7,815 nucleotides of DNA from a virus (taxonomy: Duplodnaviria > Heunggongvirae > Uroviricota > Caudoviricetes), in the IMG/VR virus record IMGVR_UViG_2690316227_000004; one strand, given 5' to 3'. Shown in pieces: positions 2,191 to 5,070 of this stretch. The notes under the pieces were generated by a model. The model worked only from the letters and a program-made list of their open reading frames with translations, was not told the DNA's origin and ran no database searches. Numbering within the stretch: the stretch's first letter is position 1; every line of letters starts with the position of its first letter. The translations under genes were made by a program, and so were the position numbers.

Positions 2191-2393
2191 AACCTCACTC
2201 CCAGCGGACGACGGCGACGTCGGGTTGTCCCCAGTACCGACTCCGCATCATTGATCGCCCGGTTAAGCTCATCCAGAGAAGCCGCCGTATATTCAATTCT
2301 GCGACCATCTTTCTGGACAGACACCACCCGTTTACCGGTTAATAAATCAAGGCGCGCCTGACGCAGCGCCTGCAGTTCAGCGACTGTAACCAT
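2187..2393 (-). CDS. W: Head-tail connector / head completion protein W (lambda gpW-like), 68 aa
   Basis: 68-aa ORF MVTVAELQALRQARLDLLTGKRVVSVQKDGRRIEYTAASL... resembles lambda gpW (..[21 protein letters not shown]..) and has the same length. Its stop TGA overlaps the B start (ATGA), and its start lies within the 3' end of A. Confidence 0.9.
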   Translation of the reverse strand: MVTVAELQALRQARLDLLTGKRVVSVQKDGRRIEYTAASLDELNRAINDAESVLGTTRRRRRPLGVRL

Positions 2394-4305
2394 TCACTCC
2401 TCCGGACAGCTTCGCTGCCAGTTCTTTCAGGGTTGGCCGGGTCGTCTCTTCTTCCCGGGATTTTGCCAGTACAGCCAGATCAAGCTGCCAGCGTTGCACG
2501 GACACACGTAATGCCGCGTAGGCATACACCAGGCAGTCCAGCGCTTCGTTACGCCGCTTTTTGTTATCCCACAGCAGACGCATCTTTCCTTTTTCCCACT
2601 TCTCCACCAGCTCTTCCGCCACCAGTTGCTGCGCCTCTGTCTGCGAAAAAATCTCCGGATCATCAGGAAAACGGATGGCATACGACGTGGCTTCATCCGC
2701 AGGCGAGGGATCGGCTTTCATACGGGCATAGAGAATTTCTTTTGCGGTGTCCGTTCCCACTTCACACAGATACACGCCCCGCTGATTGCGGGTTTTTGGC
2801 ATGGTGATCACCGGCTTGCCATAGACAGATGCGCCTTTTACCGGCAGCACCCGGAAAACACCGTGTTTTTTTGATCTCTGATAAACAATTTCACCATCGA
2901 TCCCCCCGGTGTCCCAGCAGACACGGGAAATAGTCATTTCGGTGCCATCCGCATGGCGGTATTTTTTGTTGATCGCCGCATCCACACGTAACAGCGTCTC
3001 TTCCTCATCAGGACGCCCCATAATGATGATTTTATCCACCAGAAAGGCTTCCTCTCCCGGAGCCCATCCCCAGACATACATCTCAAAACGGTTTCGCTGC
3101 GAGTCAATGCCCGCCGTCAGATAAACCACCCGGGCAGGCACCGCCGCCGTGTAACGCACCACCTTATCCATCAGTACCTGGTGATCGAGTTTTTCGCCCA
3201 CGGCCTCTTCCCAGGTCTCGCCCAGCGTGGTGTTCACAAAGGTTTTCAGGCCGTTGGGATCTTTCAGTGCATCCAGCCAGTCATAGACAATCTGTACCCA
3301 GGTGGTGAACGGACTGTACGCCGTCCAGATATGGAACGTGATGGAGCGCGGCGGCGGAATTTCATCACCCCGGGCGCTGAAAAACGTCAGACCGTCACGG
3401 GTCCACATGCCCGTGTTTTCACAGATCCACCGCCCGTTGCTCTGGTCCAGTTCAGACTGATGGATCACGCAGCCATGATGTTCACAGAGGTAGAAAACAC
3501 TTTCAGGGCTGTCCTTCTCCCATTTAAGCCCAAAAGGCGTGGACTCATCGCCAAATTTCAGATACTGCTCCTCCCCACAGTGCGGGCAGGGCACATAAAA
3601 ACGCATAAAATGCGCCGACTCGTTAGCGGCTTTTTCGATCTGGCAGGTGCCTTTGATTTTAGGCGTCGAGCCGCGAATGGATTTTGGCCACACCGACCCC
3701 TCAATACGCTTATCCCCCAGCAGGGTTGGCGAGCCCTCTTTTTCGACATCCGGCTCGAACGAGGAAAGTTCGTCATAGCAGACCACGTCCACGGATTTTT
3801 CACGGTAGTTTTTGGCGGCAGCGCCGCCCAGGCACCAGAAACCGACGCCCGATGAAAAGCGTTTCAGCGTGAGAGTATTGTCACGATGTTTACGACCCAG
3901 CCATGGGGAAAGGTCTTTCAGGCATGGCACGTTCCGAATCGTCGCCTCCACGTGAGACTTCATAAAATCTTCAGCGGCAGAATCCGTGGGCTGAAAAAGC
4001 AGACTGTTTCGGGATTTATGCTCAATAAAATACCCGACCACCCCCAGCAACATCTTTGTATAGCCAACACGGGCAGATTTAATCAGATTAACAGTGCGGA
4101 TCTGATCATTCCCCATGCTGTTCATGATGGCGATCTGGAATGGCAGCGTTTTCCATTCGCCCTCACCATATGAAGATTCTTTAGGCAGATAATAATTTTG
4201 ATCAGCCCATTCAACTGGCGTCACCGGCAATGCCCTTATCAGGGGCTGTAATGCAGTTGTGACAGCGCTCATCATATTATTCAGTTGTTGCTCTGATATA
4301 TTCAT
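2377..4305 (-). CDS. A: Terminase large subunit (lambda gpA-like), 642 aa from ATG at 4303-4305
   Basis: Long collinear similarity to lambda gpA (VEWAD.NYYLPKES.Y.EG.W.TLPFQ.AIMN.MG.D.IR.VN..KSARVGY.KMLLGV..YFIEHK..., CPHCGEEQYLKFGD, WDTGGID, KRRNEALDC.VYA.AALR). The track ORF starts at a TTG 19 codons upstream (4360-4362); the first ATG (MNISEQQ..) aligns with the lambda gpA N-terminus (MNISNSQ..), so it is taken as the start. Overlaps the end of Nu1 as in lambda. Confidence 0.93.
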   Translation of the reverse strand: MNISEQQLNNMMSAVTTALQPLIRALPVTPVEWADQNYYLPKESSYGEGEWKTLPFQIAIMNSMGNDQIRTVNLIKSARVGYTKMLLGVVGYFIEHKSRNSLLFQPTDSAAEDFMKSHVEATIRNVPCLKDLSPWLGRKHRDNTLTLKRFSSGVGFWCLGGAAAKNYREKSVDVVCYDELSSFEPDVEKEGSPTLLGDKRIEGSVWPKSIRGSTPKIKGTCQIEKAANESAHFMRFYVPCPHCGEEQYLKFGDESTPFGLKWEKDSPESVFYLCEHHGCVIHQSELDQSNGRWICENTGMWTRDGLTFFSARGDEIPPPRSITFHIWTAYSPFTTWVQIVYDWLDALKDPNGLKTFVNTTLGETWEEAVGEKLDHQVLMDKVVRYTAAVPARVVYLTAGIDSQRNRFEMYVWGWAPGEEAFLVDKIIIMGRPDEEETLLRVDAAINKKYRHADGTEMTISRVCWDTGGIDGEIVYQRSKKHGVFRVLPVKGASVYGKPVITMPKTRNQRGVYLCEVGTDTAKEILYARMKADPSPADEATSYAIRFPDDPEIFSQTEAQQLVAEELVEKWEKGKMRLLWDNKKRRNEALDCLVYAYAALRVSVQRWQLDLAVLAKSREEETTRPTLKELAAKLSGGVNGYSR

Positions 4306-4783
4306 CAAGTAAATCCGGTAATTTATCCCCTGCCCGCGCACACTGATTTGCCCCCTTAGCAATAAGGGTTTTCAGATGGTCAAGATGGCGCGGTGTTAAA
4401 TCAGGAAACTGTCGCTGCATGGATAAAGGGATGGAATCAAGCGTACTGGATAACGCCATTGCCAGCTTACTGAGGGCAAAAATACAGAATCCGGTGTCAA
4501 TAAGCTTACCTTCGGTTACCTGATTTTTAAGTTTTTGAGCTACGGCCTGTTCTTCTGTCAGTTCAGCTCTGGCCCGAAGCAGCCTTTCCTCCAGATCGCC
4601 CTCGTCATCAGGTATTCTCTGATTGTGTTGTCGCCGCTCGCGATCTATCTCCAGTACAGTTTTAACGTCATAAAAAACTTCCCTCCCCCGACGCTCAACA
4701 GGAGGAACGCCCCATTTATCAAATGCCTGAACAGATATACCGATGGAGGAGGCCATATCACTTTTATTCAATAAAAAGGCCAT
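4277..4783 (-). CDS. Nu1: Terminase small subunit (lambda Nu1 / phage 21 gp1-like), 168 aa from ATG at 4781-4783
   Basis: MAFLLNKSDMASSIGISVQAFDKWGVPPVERRGREVFYD..V aligns residue-for-residue with the lambda Nu1 N-terminal winged-HTH region (MEVNKKQLADIFGASIRTIQNWQEQGMPVLRGGGKGNEVLYD). The C-terminal region (FCIFALS...PLSMQRQFPDLTPRHLDHLK) matches the lambda Nu1 C-terminus. GGAGAGGAG lies just upstream of the chosen ATG. The track ORF begins 35 codons upstream at ATG 4886-4888, but that stretch is AT-rich, lacks an SD and overlaps the cosB repeats. Confidence 0.85.
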   Translation of the reverse strand: MAFLLNKSDMASSIGISVQAFDKWGVPPVERRGREVFYDVKTVLEIDRERRQHNQRIPDDEGDLEERLLRARAELTEEQAVAQKLKNQVTEGKLIDTGFCIFALSKLAMALSSTLDSIPLSMQRQFPDLTPRHLDHLKTLIAKGANQCARAGDKLPDLLDEYIRATTE

Positions 4784-4810
4784 CTCCTCTCCATAAGCCA
4801 TCGATAAAAA

Positions 4811-4964
4811 GCGATACAACAACCATGTGTTTTTACAAAACCATTTGATATCATTTACATTTTTCGCATTGACGACATCAAAACACATCGTAAGGTTGTT
4901 GTATTTATTTTATTTTCACCTTACTTATCAATTAGATATACCAAACAATTAAACAACAACTCCC
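4811..4964 (-). promoter_or_regulatory. cosB-like terminase small-subunit binding region: three copies of an ACAACAAC-type element (R3/R2/R1-like) with an AT-rich spacer
   Basis: Between cosN and the Nu1 start there are three related elements: + strand 4942-4962 (caaacaattaaacaacaac), 4894-4903 (ggttgttgta, inverted) and 4814-4824 (atacaacaacc). Sites 2 and 3 belong to a longer imperfect inverted repeat (4814-4835 vs 4880-4906). The two-direct-plus-one-inverted layout, the AT-rich stretch 4904-4950 and the spacing to cosN and Nu1 mirror lambda cosB (R3-I1-R2-R1), though the motif is not lambda's. Confidence 0.55.
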
Positions 4965-4993
4965 CCTCAAAAAATCTCATAAATAGCGAAAAC

Positions 4994-5015
4994 CCGCGAG
5001 GTCGCCGCCCCGTAA
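4994..5015 (-). other. cosN nicking site; 12-nt cohesive end GGGCGGCGACCT (minus strand) at 4999-5010
   Basis: The reverse complement of 4981-5010 is GGGCGGCGACCTCGCGGGTTTTCGCTATTT, identical to the lambda left cohesive end and its first bases as recalled. The adjacent bases on the other side (reverse complement of 5011-5040, GGGTCCTTTCCGGCGATCCGGGCCGTTACG) closely match the lambda right end (GGGTCCTTTCCGGTGATCCGACAGGTTACG). Confidence 0.9.
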
Positions 5016-5070
5016 CGGCCCGGATCGCCGGAAAGGACCCGCTAAAATGATAATGGTTATCAGTTGCAGC
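5016..5070 (-). other. Conserved genome right-end segment upstream of cosN (expected to contain cosQ)
   Basis: Minus strand reads ..GATAACCATTATCATTTTAGCGGGTCCTTTCCGGCGATCCGGGCCGTTACG, resembling the lambda right end ..GATAATCATTATCACTTTACGGGTCCTTTCCGGTGATCCGACAGGTTACG. The exact cosQ boundaries were not determined. Confidence 0.5.

What the first reader, a model, noticed from the sequence alone, without database searches (positions are those of the whole stretch)
4811..5070. Complete cos site: lambda-identical cohesive end but a divergent cosB built from ACAACAAC-type repeats
The 12-nt cohesive end and about 20 bp on either side are essentially lambda's. The downstream region where lambda has its R3-I1-R2-R1 elements instead carries three ACAACAAC-type elements (two direct, one inverted) and an AT-rich spacer. 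This matches the known situation where phage 21 and lambda share cosN but have different cosB and terminase small-subunit specificity. The window therefore contains a physical genome end; in a prophage this is the packaging start site.
Basis: partly seen in the sequence, partly recalled or inferred. Interest (0 to 1): 0.5.

Follow-up and report, generated by a model that had tools for sequence, protein, structure and literature searches.

The report
Prophage cos site, N15/Monarch-type cosB
This is the DNA-packaging start site (cos) of an E. coli lambda-like prophage: the cut site is lambda's, but the adjacent recognition site belongs to the packaging-specificity class already described for phage N15 and the "Monarch" prophages, so it is a real but essentially known kind of feature.

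Summary
On the minus strand the window carries cosQ (5034-5040), the lambda cohesive end GGGCGGCGACCT (4999-5010), and the lambda "I2" segment. It also carries three copies of GGTTGTTGTWT: R3 at 4951-4961, R2 at 4894-4904 (inverted) and R1 at 4814-4824. These lie in 27% G+C DNA directly upstream of a Nu1-family terS, gpA-family terL, gpW and portal.

The phage 21/lambda analogy is right in principle, but a closer known relative exists. R3 sits in exactly the register of the mutationally mapped R3 of phage N15 (13/16 identical, against 6/16 to lambda or 21). The TerS recognition helix (GISVQAFDKW) is identical to N15's.

R3, an IHF-like site and R2 fall within 1 bp of their annotated positions in phage 21. 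That is the "complex cosB with N15 specificity" which Feiss et al. (2015) described for the Monarch prophage group. All five features they list that can be checked by sequence are met.

Two details may not have been described. R1 lies 79 bp from R2 (about 41 bp in lambda), and a conserved second IHF-like site sits in between. EcCICFT073-like satellites also carry this whole cosB without terS.

Function is inferred from homology, not shown. Novelty: new member of a known kind.

The parts
5034..5040 (-). cosQ (GGGTCCT), the packaging-termination subsite
   Evidence: Identical to lambda's cosQ and 23 nt from the nick, as in lambda. It is invariant or nearly so in 16 non-redundant related cos regions (mean majority fraction 0.99). 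Its role is taken from lambda literature (PMC9026076).
4999..5010 (-). cosN: the 12-nt cohesive-end sequence GGGCGGCGACCT. Left-end bp 1 is window 5010; the predicted nicks flank this stretch.
   Evidence: 12/12 identical to lambda and phage 21, and 10/12 to N15. Cleavage is inferred, not shown.
4961..4993 (-). I2-equivalent segment (left-end bp 18-50), including the conserved box CGCTATTTATGA at 4977-4988
   Evidence: Left-end bp 18-34 are identical to lambda. The box has a mean majority fraction of 0.96 across relatives. In lambda, I2 is a static bend that is critical for packaging, with bp 30-35 essential (PMC4856287).
4951..4961 (-). R3 (AGTTGTTGTTT, left-end bp 50-60): predicted critical TerS binding site
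   Evidence: It is in the same ungapped register as N15 bp 51-63, GTTGTTGTTTAAT. N15 R3 was mapped by block mutations to bp 48-59, with bp 54-59 most important (PMC4669245). Here bp 54-59 are identical. 10/11 columns are invariant in relatives.
4926..4938 (+). I1-like IHF consensus match (TATCAATTAGATA, 12/13 to WATCAANNNNTTR), left-end bp 73-85, flanked by the A/T tract 4905-4919
   Evidence: Found. It has the same orientation as the IHF site I1 annotated in phage 21 and sits 1 bp from it (bp 74-86); lambda has its consensus match at the same coordinates. The TTGATAAGTAAG core is conserved in enteric lineages (0.89). The consensus count is not significant across the whole window (10 observed vs 5.8 expected). 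IHF binding is not tested.
4894..4904 (+). R2 (GGTTGTTGTAT on the + strand, inverted relative to R3 and R1), left-end bp 107-117
   Evidence: Phage 21 R2 is annotated at bp 107-122 and is also inverted. The R3-to-R2 core spacing is 58 bp in nearly all related loci.
4838..4850 (-). Second IHF-like site (TATCAAATGGTTT, 12/13 to consensus), left-end bp 161-173, in the opposite orientation to I1, with an A5 tract 9 nt upstream. Candidate element only.
   Evidence: It is conserved at 0.88, against 0.73-0.78 for its flanks. It stays 26-27 bp from R1 even in the lineage whose R2-R1 spacing is 67 bp instead of 79 bp. It is retained in satellite copies that lack terS. Function untested.
4814..4824 (-). 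R1 (GGTTGTTGTAT), left-end bp 187-197
   Evidence: An exact 11-mer copy of R2 in the opposite orientation. It was not part of any search pattern, yet 10/11 columns are invariant in 16 non-redundant relatives. It lies 79 bp from R2, compared with about 41-43 bp in lambda and phage 21.
4277..4783 (-). terS (small terminase, Nu1 family). The likely start is the ATG at 4783-4781, preceded by GGAGAGGAG. The N-terminal DNA-binding domain carries the recognition helix within GISVQAFDKW.
   Evidence: - Family: Pfam Phage_Nu1, E 5.8e-21.
- Similarity to N15: the first 52 residues are 71% identical to N15 gp1, with an identical helix.
- Similarity to lambda/21: a profile comparison aligns residues 5-45 with Nu1 residues 3-48 (E 2.3e-5).
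- Start codon: RefSeq starts the homologue at the position equivalent to 4756. An in-frame ATG at 4801 is also possible.
2377..4362 (-). terL (large terminase, gpA family), the enzyme predicted to nick cosN
   Evidence: Pfam GpA_ATPase (E 1.1e-55) and GpA_nuclease (E 1e-71).

Best explanation
The region is the cos site of an E. coli lambdoid prophage, read on the minus strand as cosQ - cosN - I2 - cosB(R3-I1-R2-[IHF-like]-R1) - terS - terL.

Proposed mechanism, by analogy with lambda and N15:
1. The N-terminal winged-helix domains of a TerS dimer dock on R3 and on the inverted R2.
2. A bend at the intervening IHF site brings R3 and R2 face to face.
3. Bound TerS positions TerL to make nicks staggered by 12 bp at 4999-5010. 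This creates the GGGCGGCGACCT 5' overhang.
4. DNA is then packaged toward decreasing window coordinates, terS first.
5. cosQ serves termination at the next cos.

The packaging specificity is that of phage N15, in the tripartite 'Monarch-type' layout. It is not the specificity of lambda or phage 21.

What is shown here: the sequence anatomy, the register, the conservation and the link between helix and R site. What is inferred: protein binding, bending and cutting.
For: 1. Anatomy and chance.
2. R3 has N15's sequence and exact distance from the nick. It is 13/16 identical to N15, against 6/16 to lambda and 6/16 to phage 21. N15's R3 was mapped genetically to bp 48-59 (PMC4669245).
3. The TerS recognition helix is identical to N15's, and the domain is homologous to Nu1.
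4. All 25 genome loci recovered with this DNA-binding domain (GISVQAFDKW strictly conserved in the 17 sequences aligned) carry GGTTGTTGTT (in one locus AGTTGTTGTT) about 50 bp beyond a cosN-like or CGCTATNTATGA box. They come from Escherichia, Trabulsiella, Pluralibacter, Erwinia, Pseudomonas, Halomonas, Aeromonas, Oceanimonas and others.
5. Phages that share this cosQ/cosN/I2 but carry another TerS N-terminus also carry other R repeats. Stx1 phages have lambda-type repeats; PhiR12 phages have CATGTCCGGTT-type repeats.
6. R3, the IHF-like site and R2 are within 1 bp of the positions annotated in phage 21.
7. In 16 non-redundant relatives the three R elements are 98-99% conserved, against 68-85% for the spacers. 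R1 was never used as a search term.
8. PICI-like satellites keep the complete R3...R1 block without terS. This argues for a cis-acting packaging signal rather than a terS regulatory region.
9. Intact Nu1-family terS and gpA-family terL, gpW and portal follow directly.
Against: - There is no experimental evidence for this prophage: no virion ends, no binding data and no induction data.
- The IHF consensus matches are 12/13, and their number is not significant across the window (10 observed vs 5.8 expected).
- R3 and R2 conservation is partly inflated, because some loci were retrieved with a pattern containing them.
- The recognition-helix invariance is partly by construction, because GISVQAFD was one of the search peptides.
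- R1 is about 37 bp further from R2 than in lambda or phage 21, so the lambda model may not transfer fully.
- The Monarch sequence itself could not be inspected, because the Virology 2015 paper is not held.
Confidence: 0.88

Rival explanations
1. The site has this anatomy but is a relic. The prophage is defective, and this cos is no longer cut or used for packaging in its host.
For: Many lambdoid prophages of E. coli are defective. Genomes with any match carry a median of 2, and up to 12, matches to the 501-nt cos-region query. No induction data exist for this element. Some close relatives of the window are interrupted by IS66/IS600 elements near the terminase and portal genes.
Against: terS, terL, gpW and portal are full-length open frames with strong Pfam matches. 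All cos subsites are intact and match the family consensus. About 40 complete E. coli genomes and hundreds of IMG/VR contigs carry the same arrangement.
Confidence: 0.1
2. The cosB defines a further specificity that is functionally distinct from N15. Despite the shared helix and R core, N15-specific terminase would not package it. Possible reasons are the different wing or flanking residues, or a requirement for R2, R1 and IHF.
For: - The DNA-binding domain is only 71% identical to N15 outside the helix.
- R3 differs from N15 at bp 49-50.
- The architecture (three R sites, IHF-like sites) differs from N15's single R3.
- Packaging relations are known to be asymmetric: N15 terminase packages lambda DNA, but lambda terminase does not package N15 DNA (PMC4669245).
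Against: The helix is identical, and bp 54-59 of R3, the most important block in N15, are identical and in the same register. Feiss et al. inferred shared specificity for Monarch from the same criteria.
Confidence: 0.1
3. The GTTGTTGT repeats are operators for a transcription factor that controls terS/terL expression, or a replication or partition-type iteron set, and are unrelated to terminase recognition.
For: The repeats lie in an AT-rich intergenic region just upstream of terS. One weak sigma-70-like match lies on the opposite strand at 4832-4861.
Against: - The promoter scan is at chance level (2 found vs 1.6 expected).
- The first repeat has a fixed distance from cosN across genera.
- The identical element in N15 is genetically required for packaging.
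- The block persists in satellites with no terS downstream.
- The repeat sequence changes together with the TerS helix type.
Confidence: 0.02

Closest known systems
cosB of the 'Monarch' prophage group (complex cosB with N15 packaging specificity; Feiss et al., Virology 2015 and PLoS One 2015, PMC4669245)
   Same: - TerS recognition helix identical to N15's.
- R3 strongly matches R3-N15.
- Three R sequences, with R2 inverted.
- An IHF-type site between R3 and R2.
- No rR2 inside terS.
All were checked here.
   Different: The Monarch sequence could not be read, so identity or divergence is unknown. It is also unknown whether Monarch has the 79-bp R2-R1 spacing and the second IHF-like site. This window combines the cosB with a lambda-identical cohesive end.
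Phage N15 cos (simple cosB: R3 only, plus remote rR2)
   Same: R3 core sequence and register (GTTGTTGTTTAAT at bp 51-63). TerS helix GISVQAFDKW. The I2 box. A Nu1/gpA-type terminase.
   Different: - N15 has no I1, R2 or R1.
- N15 terS starts at bp 89, against bp 228 here.
- N15 has rR2 at about bp 250 in gene 1, absent here.
- N15's cohesive end differs at 2 of 12 positions.
- The distance from R1 to the terS ATG here (33 nt) is close to the distance from R3 to the ATG in N15 (31 nt). This fits the published idea of an R3 x R1 unequal crossover.
Lambda cos (cosQ-cosN-I2-R3-I1-R2-R1, gpNu1/gpA)
   Same: - cosQ and its spacing from the nick.
- The 12-nt end, and bp 13-34.
- The order and orientation of the R sites.
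- The position of R3, and the I1-like site at lambda's coordinates; R2 lies a few bp closer to R3 here (core spacing 58 vs 61 bp).
- The gene order terS-terL-W-portal.
   Different: The R sequences are unrelated (6/16). The TerS helix differs (RTIQNWQE in lambda, QAFDKWGV here). R2-R1 is 79 bp rather than about 41 bp, with an extra IHF-like site. The TerS C-terminal half is diverged.
Phage 21 cos
   Same: It shares cosN with lambda and with this window. It has a tripartite cosB, with annotated R3 at 50-65, I1 at 74-86 and R2 at 107-122. It is the classic case of an exchanged cosB plus TerS-domain specificity.
   Different: Its R consensus (CATGTCGG-type) and its TerS helix are different (6/16 at R3). 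Its R1 is at bp 150-166.

Membership tests
Lambda-like cos site | [quoted passage not shown] | tested here: met
   12/12 identical at 4999-5010. The physical overhang itself is not testable here.
Lambda-like cos site | Conserved 7-bp cosQ upstream of cosN at lambda-like spacing | tested here: met
   GGGTCCT at 5034-5040, 23 nt from the nick as in lambda.
Lambda-like cos site | I2 segment (bp 18-50) between cosN and R3, with the critical bp 30-35 | tested here: met
   bp 18-34 are identical to lambda, and bp 30-35 are 5/6 identical. The static bend was not measured.
Lambda-like cos site | Site is cut by terminase to give the virion chromosome ends | not testable with these tools
   Needs virion DNA end mapping.
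Complex (tripartite) cosB | Three related R sequences, with R2 opposite to R3 and R1 | tested here: met
   R3 4951-4961 (-), R2 4894-4904 (+), R1 4814-4824 (-). Three hits against 0.27 expected.
Complex (tripartite) cosB | [quoted passage not shown] | tested here: inconclusive
   A 12/13 consensus match at left-end bp 73-85, against bp 74-86 in lambda and phage 21, conserved in enteric relatives. Consensus matches are not enriched across the window, and binding is untested.
N15 packaging specificity | R3 matching R3-N15 (bp 48-59, especially bp 54-59) at the same distance from cosN | tested here: met
   bp 48-59 are 10/12 identical and bp 54-59 are 6/6, in ungapped register.
N15 packaging specificity | TerS recognition helix identical to TerS-N15 | tested here: met
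   GISVQAFDKWGV is present in both proteins.
N15 packaging specificity | Packaged by N15-specific terminase but not by lambda- or 21-specific terminase | not testable with these tools
   Requires a helper-packaging assay as in PMC4669245.
Monarch group (complex cosB of N15 specificity) | No rR2 sequence inside terS | tested here: met
   No match with 1 or fewer mismatches in terS. N15 has one at bp 250.
Monarch group (complex cosB of N15 specificity) | Sequence relatedness to the Monarch prophage cos itself | not tested
   The paper that gives the Monarch sequence (Virology 482:260, PMC4461450) is not held. No taxonomy entry was found.
N15-type simple cosB | Single R3 followed directly by terS (start near bp 89), with no I1, R2 or R1 | tested here: not met
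   terS starts at bp 228, and R2 and R1 are present.
Lambda or phage 21 packaging specificity | R sequences and TerS helix of lambda (CGTTTCC-type) or phage 21 (CATGTCGG-type) | tested here: not met
   6/16 identity at R3 to each, and a different helix.
Nu1-family small terminase / gpA-family large terminase | Significant match to the family profiles, adjacent to cos | tested here: met
   Phage_Nu1 E 5.8e-21; GpA_ATPase E 1.1e-55; GpA_nuclease E 1e-71. DNA-binding domain profile against lambda/21: E 2.3e-5.

The most novel reading that the evidence does not exclude
cosB in this lineage may not be simply 'lambda with other R boxes'. The conserved 79-bp R2-R1 interval with its own conserved IHF-like site, inverted relative to I1, could form a second protein-assisted hairpin. 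In that case R2 could pair with either R3 or R1, or a TerS tetramer could bridge all three. The same terminase might also, like N15's, package lambda-type cos DNA, and it would mobilise the PICI satellites that carry this cosB. That would make it a cross-packaging hub in polylysogenic STEC strains.
Probability: 0.25. Interest if true: 0.45.

Novelty: new member of a known kind. Interest (0 to 1): 0.27.

Why it matters
The site marks the physical chromosome end and the packaging origin of a prophage lineage found in pathogenic and commensal E. coli (O145:H28, O113:H21, swine isolates). It assigns that lineage to the N15 packaging-specificity class. This matters in three ways.

- Cross-packaging: it predicts which co-resident prophages, cosmids or satellites its terminase can package. 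N15-specific terminase is known to package lambda DNA, but the reverse does not occur.
- Annotation: RefSeq leaves the cos site unannotated and truncates terS.
- Experimental value: it offers a natural complex counterpart to N15's minimal cosB, for asking what R2, R1 and IHF contribute.

It does not reveal a new kind of system.

Tried and rejected
- Lambda or phage 21 specificity: rejected by direct alignment (6/16 at R3 for each).
- N15-type simple cosB: rejected, because R2 and R1 are present, terS starts at bp 228, and there is no rR2.
- A structured RNA in the region: Rfam gave only a sub-threshold snoRNA chance hit.
- Promoter or terminator signals around cos: at chance level.
- Solved-structure relatives of TerS by sequence: only a non-significant match to lambda TerS 6hn7_B (E 0.48). 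Homology rests on Pfam and the profile comparison instead.
- Finding the Monarch sequence: the Virology 2015 paper is not held. Two literature searches and a taxonomy look-up gave nothing further.
- Deposited phages: a search of 50,697 records found no phage with this lineage's cosB. Only N15, one Enterobacter phage and Pseudomonas F10/MD8-like phages share the DNA-binding domain at 66-80% identity.
- Rpp-like function for the ORF downstream of the satellite cos: no PDB hit.
- Not run: a structure prediction of the TerS domain and the large protein-database searches. The family assignment was already clear.

Full report
**What is in the sequence**

The window is the late/head region of an E. 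coli lambdoid prophage. It is 99.0% identical over its full length to E. coli CP062871. All genes are on the minus strand:
- S21-type holin, lysozyme and Rz;
- a KilA-N/ORF11CD3 protein and an 85-aa ORF;
- a gap of about 580 bp without convincing genes;
- then a Nu1-family terS, gpA-family terL, gpW and a lambda-type portal.

The finding lies in that gap. Read on the minus strand, GGGCGGCGACCT occupies 5010-4999. I number from there as 'left-end bp 1'.

**Check of the observation**

- Left-end bp 1-34 are identical to lambda, 34/34.
- Upstream of the nick, 26 of the last 31 nt equal lambda's right end. This includes cosQ GGGTCCT (5034-5040) at the same 23-nt distance from the nick. Only 6 of the 10 nt next to the nick match.
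- The three repeats are real. GGTTGTTGTWT with up to one mismatch occurs three times in 7815 bp, all here. The expectation is 0.27, and no shuffle out of 200 reached three.
- The copies are R3 at 4951-4961 (-), R2 at 4894-4904 (+) and R1 at 4814-4824 (-).
- The repeat-bearing stretch is 27% G+C, in a 52% window.

**What it is**

Beyond bp 34 the sequence leaves both lambda and 21.
- The 16-bp R3 interval is 6/16 identical to each of them, but 13/16 identical to N15.
- GTTGTTGTTTAAT occupies bp 51-63 in both the window and N15, without any gap.
- In N15 this element is the genetically defined R3. Block mutations of bp 48-53 and bp 54-59 reduce packaging, the latter most strongly (PMC4669245).

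The protein side agrees.
- From the ATG at 4783, TerS begins MAFLLNKSDMASSIGISVQAFDKWGVPPVERRGREVFYD.
- N15 gp1 begins MAVLLNKSDMASSLGISVQAFDKWGVQPVEKRGREVFFD.
- A profile of this domain aligns with lambda/21 Nu1 residues 3-48 (E 2.3e-5). That places the lambda recognition helix (residues 17-24) on residues 19-26, which are identical to N15.

[quoted passage not shown] It matches PhiR12-type phages at 91% DNA identity.

**Architecture**

Unlike N15, whose terS starts at bp 89 right after R3, this cosB is tripartite. The curated phage 21 record annotates the following:

| Element | Phage 21 (bp) | This window (bp) |
|---|---|---|
| R3 | 50-65 | 50-60 |
| I1 / IHF consensus match | 74-86 | 73-85 (12/13 match, same orientation) |
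| R2 (inverted) | 107-122 | 107-117 |
| R1 | 150-166 | 187-197 |

So the first three elements are superimposable on the lambda/21 plan. This is the arrangement Feiss et al. describe for the 'Monarch' prophage group. [quoted passage not shown] I checked each of these here. The absence of rR2 is shown. I could not read the Monarch sequence itself.

**Evidence from relatives**

- A protein-seeded scan of one genome per species returned 25 loci in Escherichia, Trabulsiella, Pluralibacter, Erwinia, Pseudomonas, Halomonas, Aeromonas, Oceanimonas and others.
- In every one, GGTTGTTGTT (AGTTGTTGTT in Pluralibacter) lies about 50 bp beyond a cosN-like sequence or the CGCTATNTATGA box.
- Most are of the simple N15 type. 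A minority carry the inverted R2, with or without R1.
- IMG/VR holds 301 relatives of the domain.
- About 40 of 5426 complete E. coli genomes carry at least 80% of this cos region.
- No deposited phage genome has this lineage's cosB.

In 16 non-redundant complex cosB sequences, conservation (mean majority fraction) is as follows:

| Element | Conservation |
|---|---|
| R3, R2, R1 | 0.98-0.99 |
| I2 box | 0.96 |
| I1 core | 0.89 |
| Spacers | 0.68-0.85 |

R1 was never part of a search pattern, so its conservation is an unbiased footprint. The values for R3, R2 and the helix are partly inflated by how the loci were found.

Spacing is rigid. R3 to R2 is 58 bp almost everywhere. R2 to R1 is 79 bp, with one lineage at 67 bp.

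**Exchangeable cassette**

Phages that share cosQ, cosN and I2 with the window at 94-96% identity switch to other R repeats together with another TerS N-terminus. Stx1 phages have the lambda type. PhiR12 phages have CATGTCCGGTT repeats and a different helix. So cosB plus the TerS DNA-binding domain behaves as one exchangeable unit. The breakpoints lie near left-end bp 35-41 and inside terS near window 4581.

**Mechanism (inferred)**

By analogy with lambda (PMC9026076 and PMC4856287):
1. A TerS dimer docks on R3 and R2 across a bend at I1.
2. It anchors TerL to nick cosN 12 bp apart.
3. Packaging proceeds toward terS, and cosQ acts at termination.

Nothing here demonstrates binding or cutting.

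**What may go beyond the published description**

R1 lies about 37 bp further out than in lambda or phage 21. The extra spacer holds a second 12/13 IHF-consensus match (4838-4850), inverted relative to I1 and preceded by an A5 tract.
- It is conserved at 0.88, against 0.73-0.78 for its flanks.
- It keeps a distance of 26-27 bp to R1 even in the lineage with 67-bp spacing.

A second bend that brings R2 and R1 together is possible but speculative.

**By-product**

EcCICFT073-like PICI satellites carry the complete R3-I1-R2-IHF-like-R1 block with no terS behind it. Some also carry a second, convergent cos whose cosB is of the PhiR12 type.
- Their gene content is integrase, primase, SSB, capsid and decoration homologues.
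- One example sits between cspD/yljB and clpS in E. coli STEC2018-607.

This supports the view that the whole block is a cis-acting packaging signal.

**Verdict**

The feature belongs to a class already described in the literature, the N15 specificity in its Monarch-type complex cosB form. It is a new member of a known kind and of modest interest.

Noticed in passing
L115:4160-4760 (IMG/VR 2698536428_000001); chromosomal counterpart L232:2557-12774 (E. coli STEC2018-607, NZ_CP075697): An EcCICFT073-like PICI satellite (integrase, ash, icd-like, primase, SSB, PerC, capsid E-like, decoration D-like) carries two convergent cos sites. One has the full N15/Monarch-type cosB (R3-I1-R2-IHF-like-R1) with no terS behind it. 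The other, inverted, has a PhiR12-type cosB (CATGTCCGGTT repeats). No Rpp-like protein was recognised. This suggests a satellite tuned to helpers of two TerS specificities. Published EcCICFT073 work reported that no phage cosB could be identified.
   Followed up: partly
window 4581 and 4970-4976 (mosaic breakpoints); L004, L005: Stx1a-converting phages and PhiR12_x phages share cosQ-cosN-I2 with the window at 94-96% identity. PhiR12_x phages also share the TerS C-terminal half and terL at about 91%. Both groups carry different cosB plus TerS N-terminal cassettes: the lambda type, and a CATGTCCGGTT-repeat type with N-terminus VATQTEVARHLSLTDRQLRRLQKL.
   Followed up: partly
L012, L014, L031, L074, L088, L137, L218, L221 (alignment): The same N15-type cosB, I2 box and cosQ are combined with quite different predicted 12-nt cohesive ends in other lineages, for example GGTGCGTATACC, GGGTCAGAGGAC and GGGGATGTATAC. 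These ends are inferred by alignment only. cosN therefore varies more than cosQ, I2 or the R sites.
   Followed up: no
L008, L010, L011, L013, L015-L030: The simple, N15-like cosB (R3 only, terS starting within a few to about 30 nt) is the common form in Pseudomonas, Halomonas, Aeromonas, Oceanimonas, Erwinia and Trabulsiella. The tripartite form is mostly enteric. This bears on the published proposal that N15's simple cosB derived from a Monarch-like complex one. The breadth of the simple form leaves the opposite direction open. The R1-to-ATG distance in the window (33 nt) is nevertheless close to N15's R3-to-ATG distance (31 nt).
   Followed up: no
window 4756-4801; L003:5445: RefSeq annotates the terS homologue from the internal Met equivalent to window 4756 (MASSIGIS...). 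That cuts off nine N-terminal residues conserved with N15 gp1. The ATG at 4783 has a strong GGAGAGGAG Shine-Dalgarno sequence and aligns with N15's start. The cos site itself is unannotated.
   Followed up: partly
window 4822-4833 and 4880-4891: The inverted repeat formed by R1 and R2 extends into their inner flanks (ACCATGTGTTTT / AAAACACATCGT, 92% complementary). This extension does not look conserved in the more divergent lineages.
   Followed up: no
L014 (CACSKA010000005.1): A contig labelled Chryseobacterium sp. carries a gammaproteobacterial-type cos (cosQ, I2 box, R3, inverted R2) and an N15-like terS. This may be contamination or mislabelling of the assembly.
   Followed up: no
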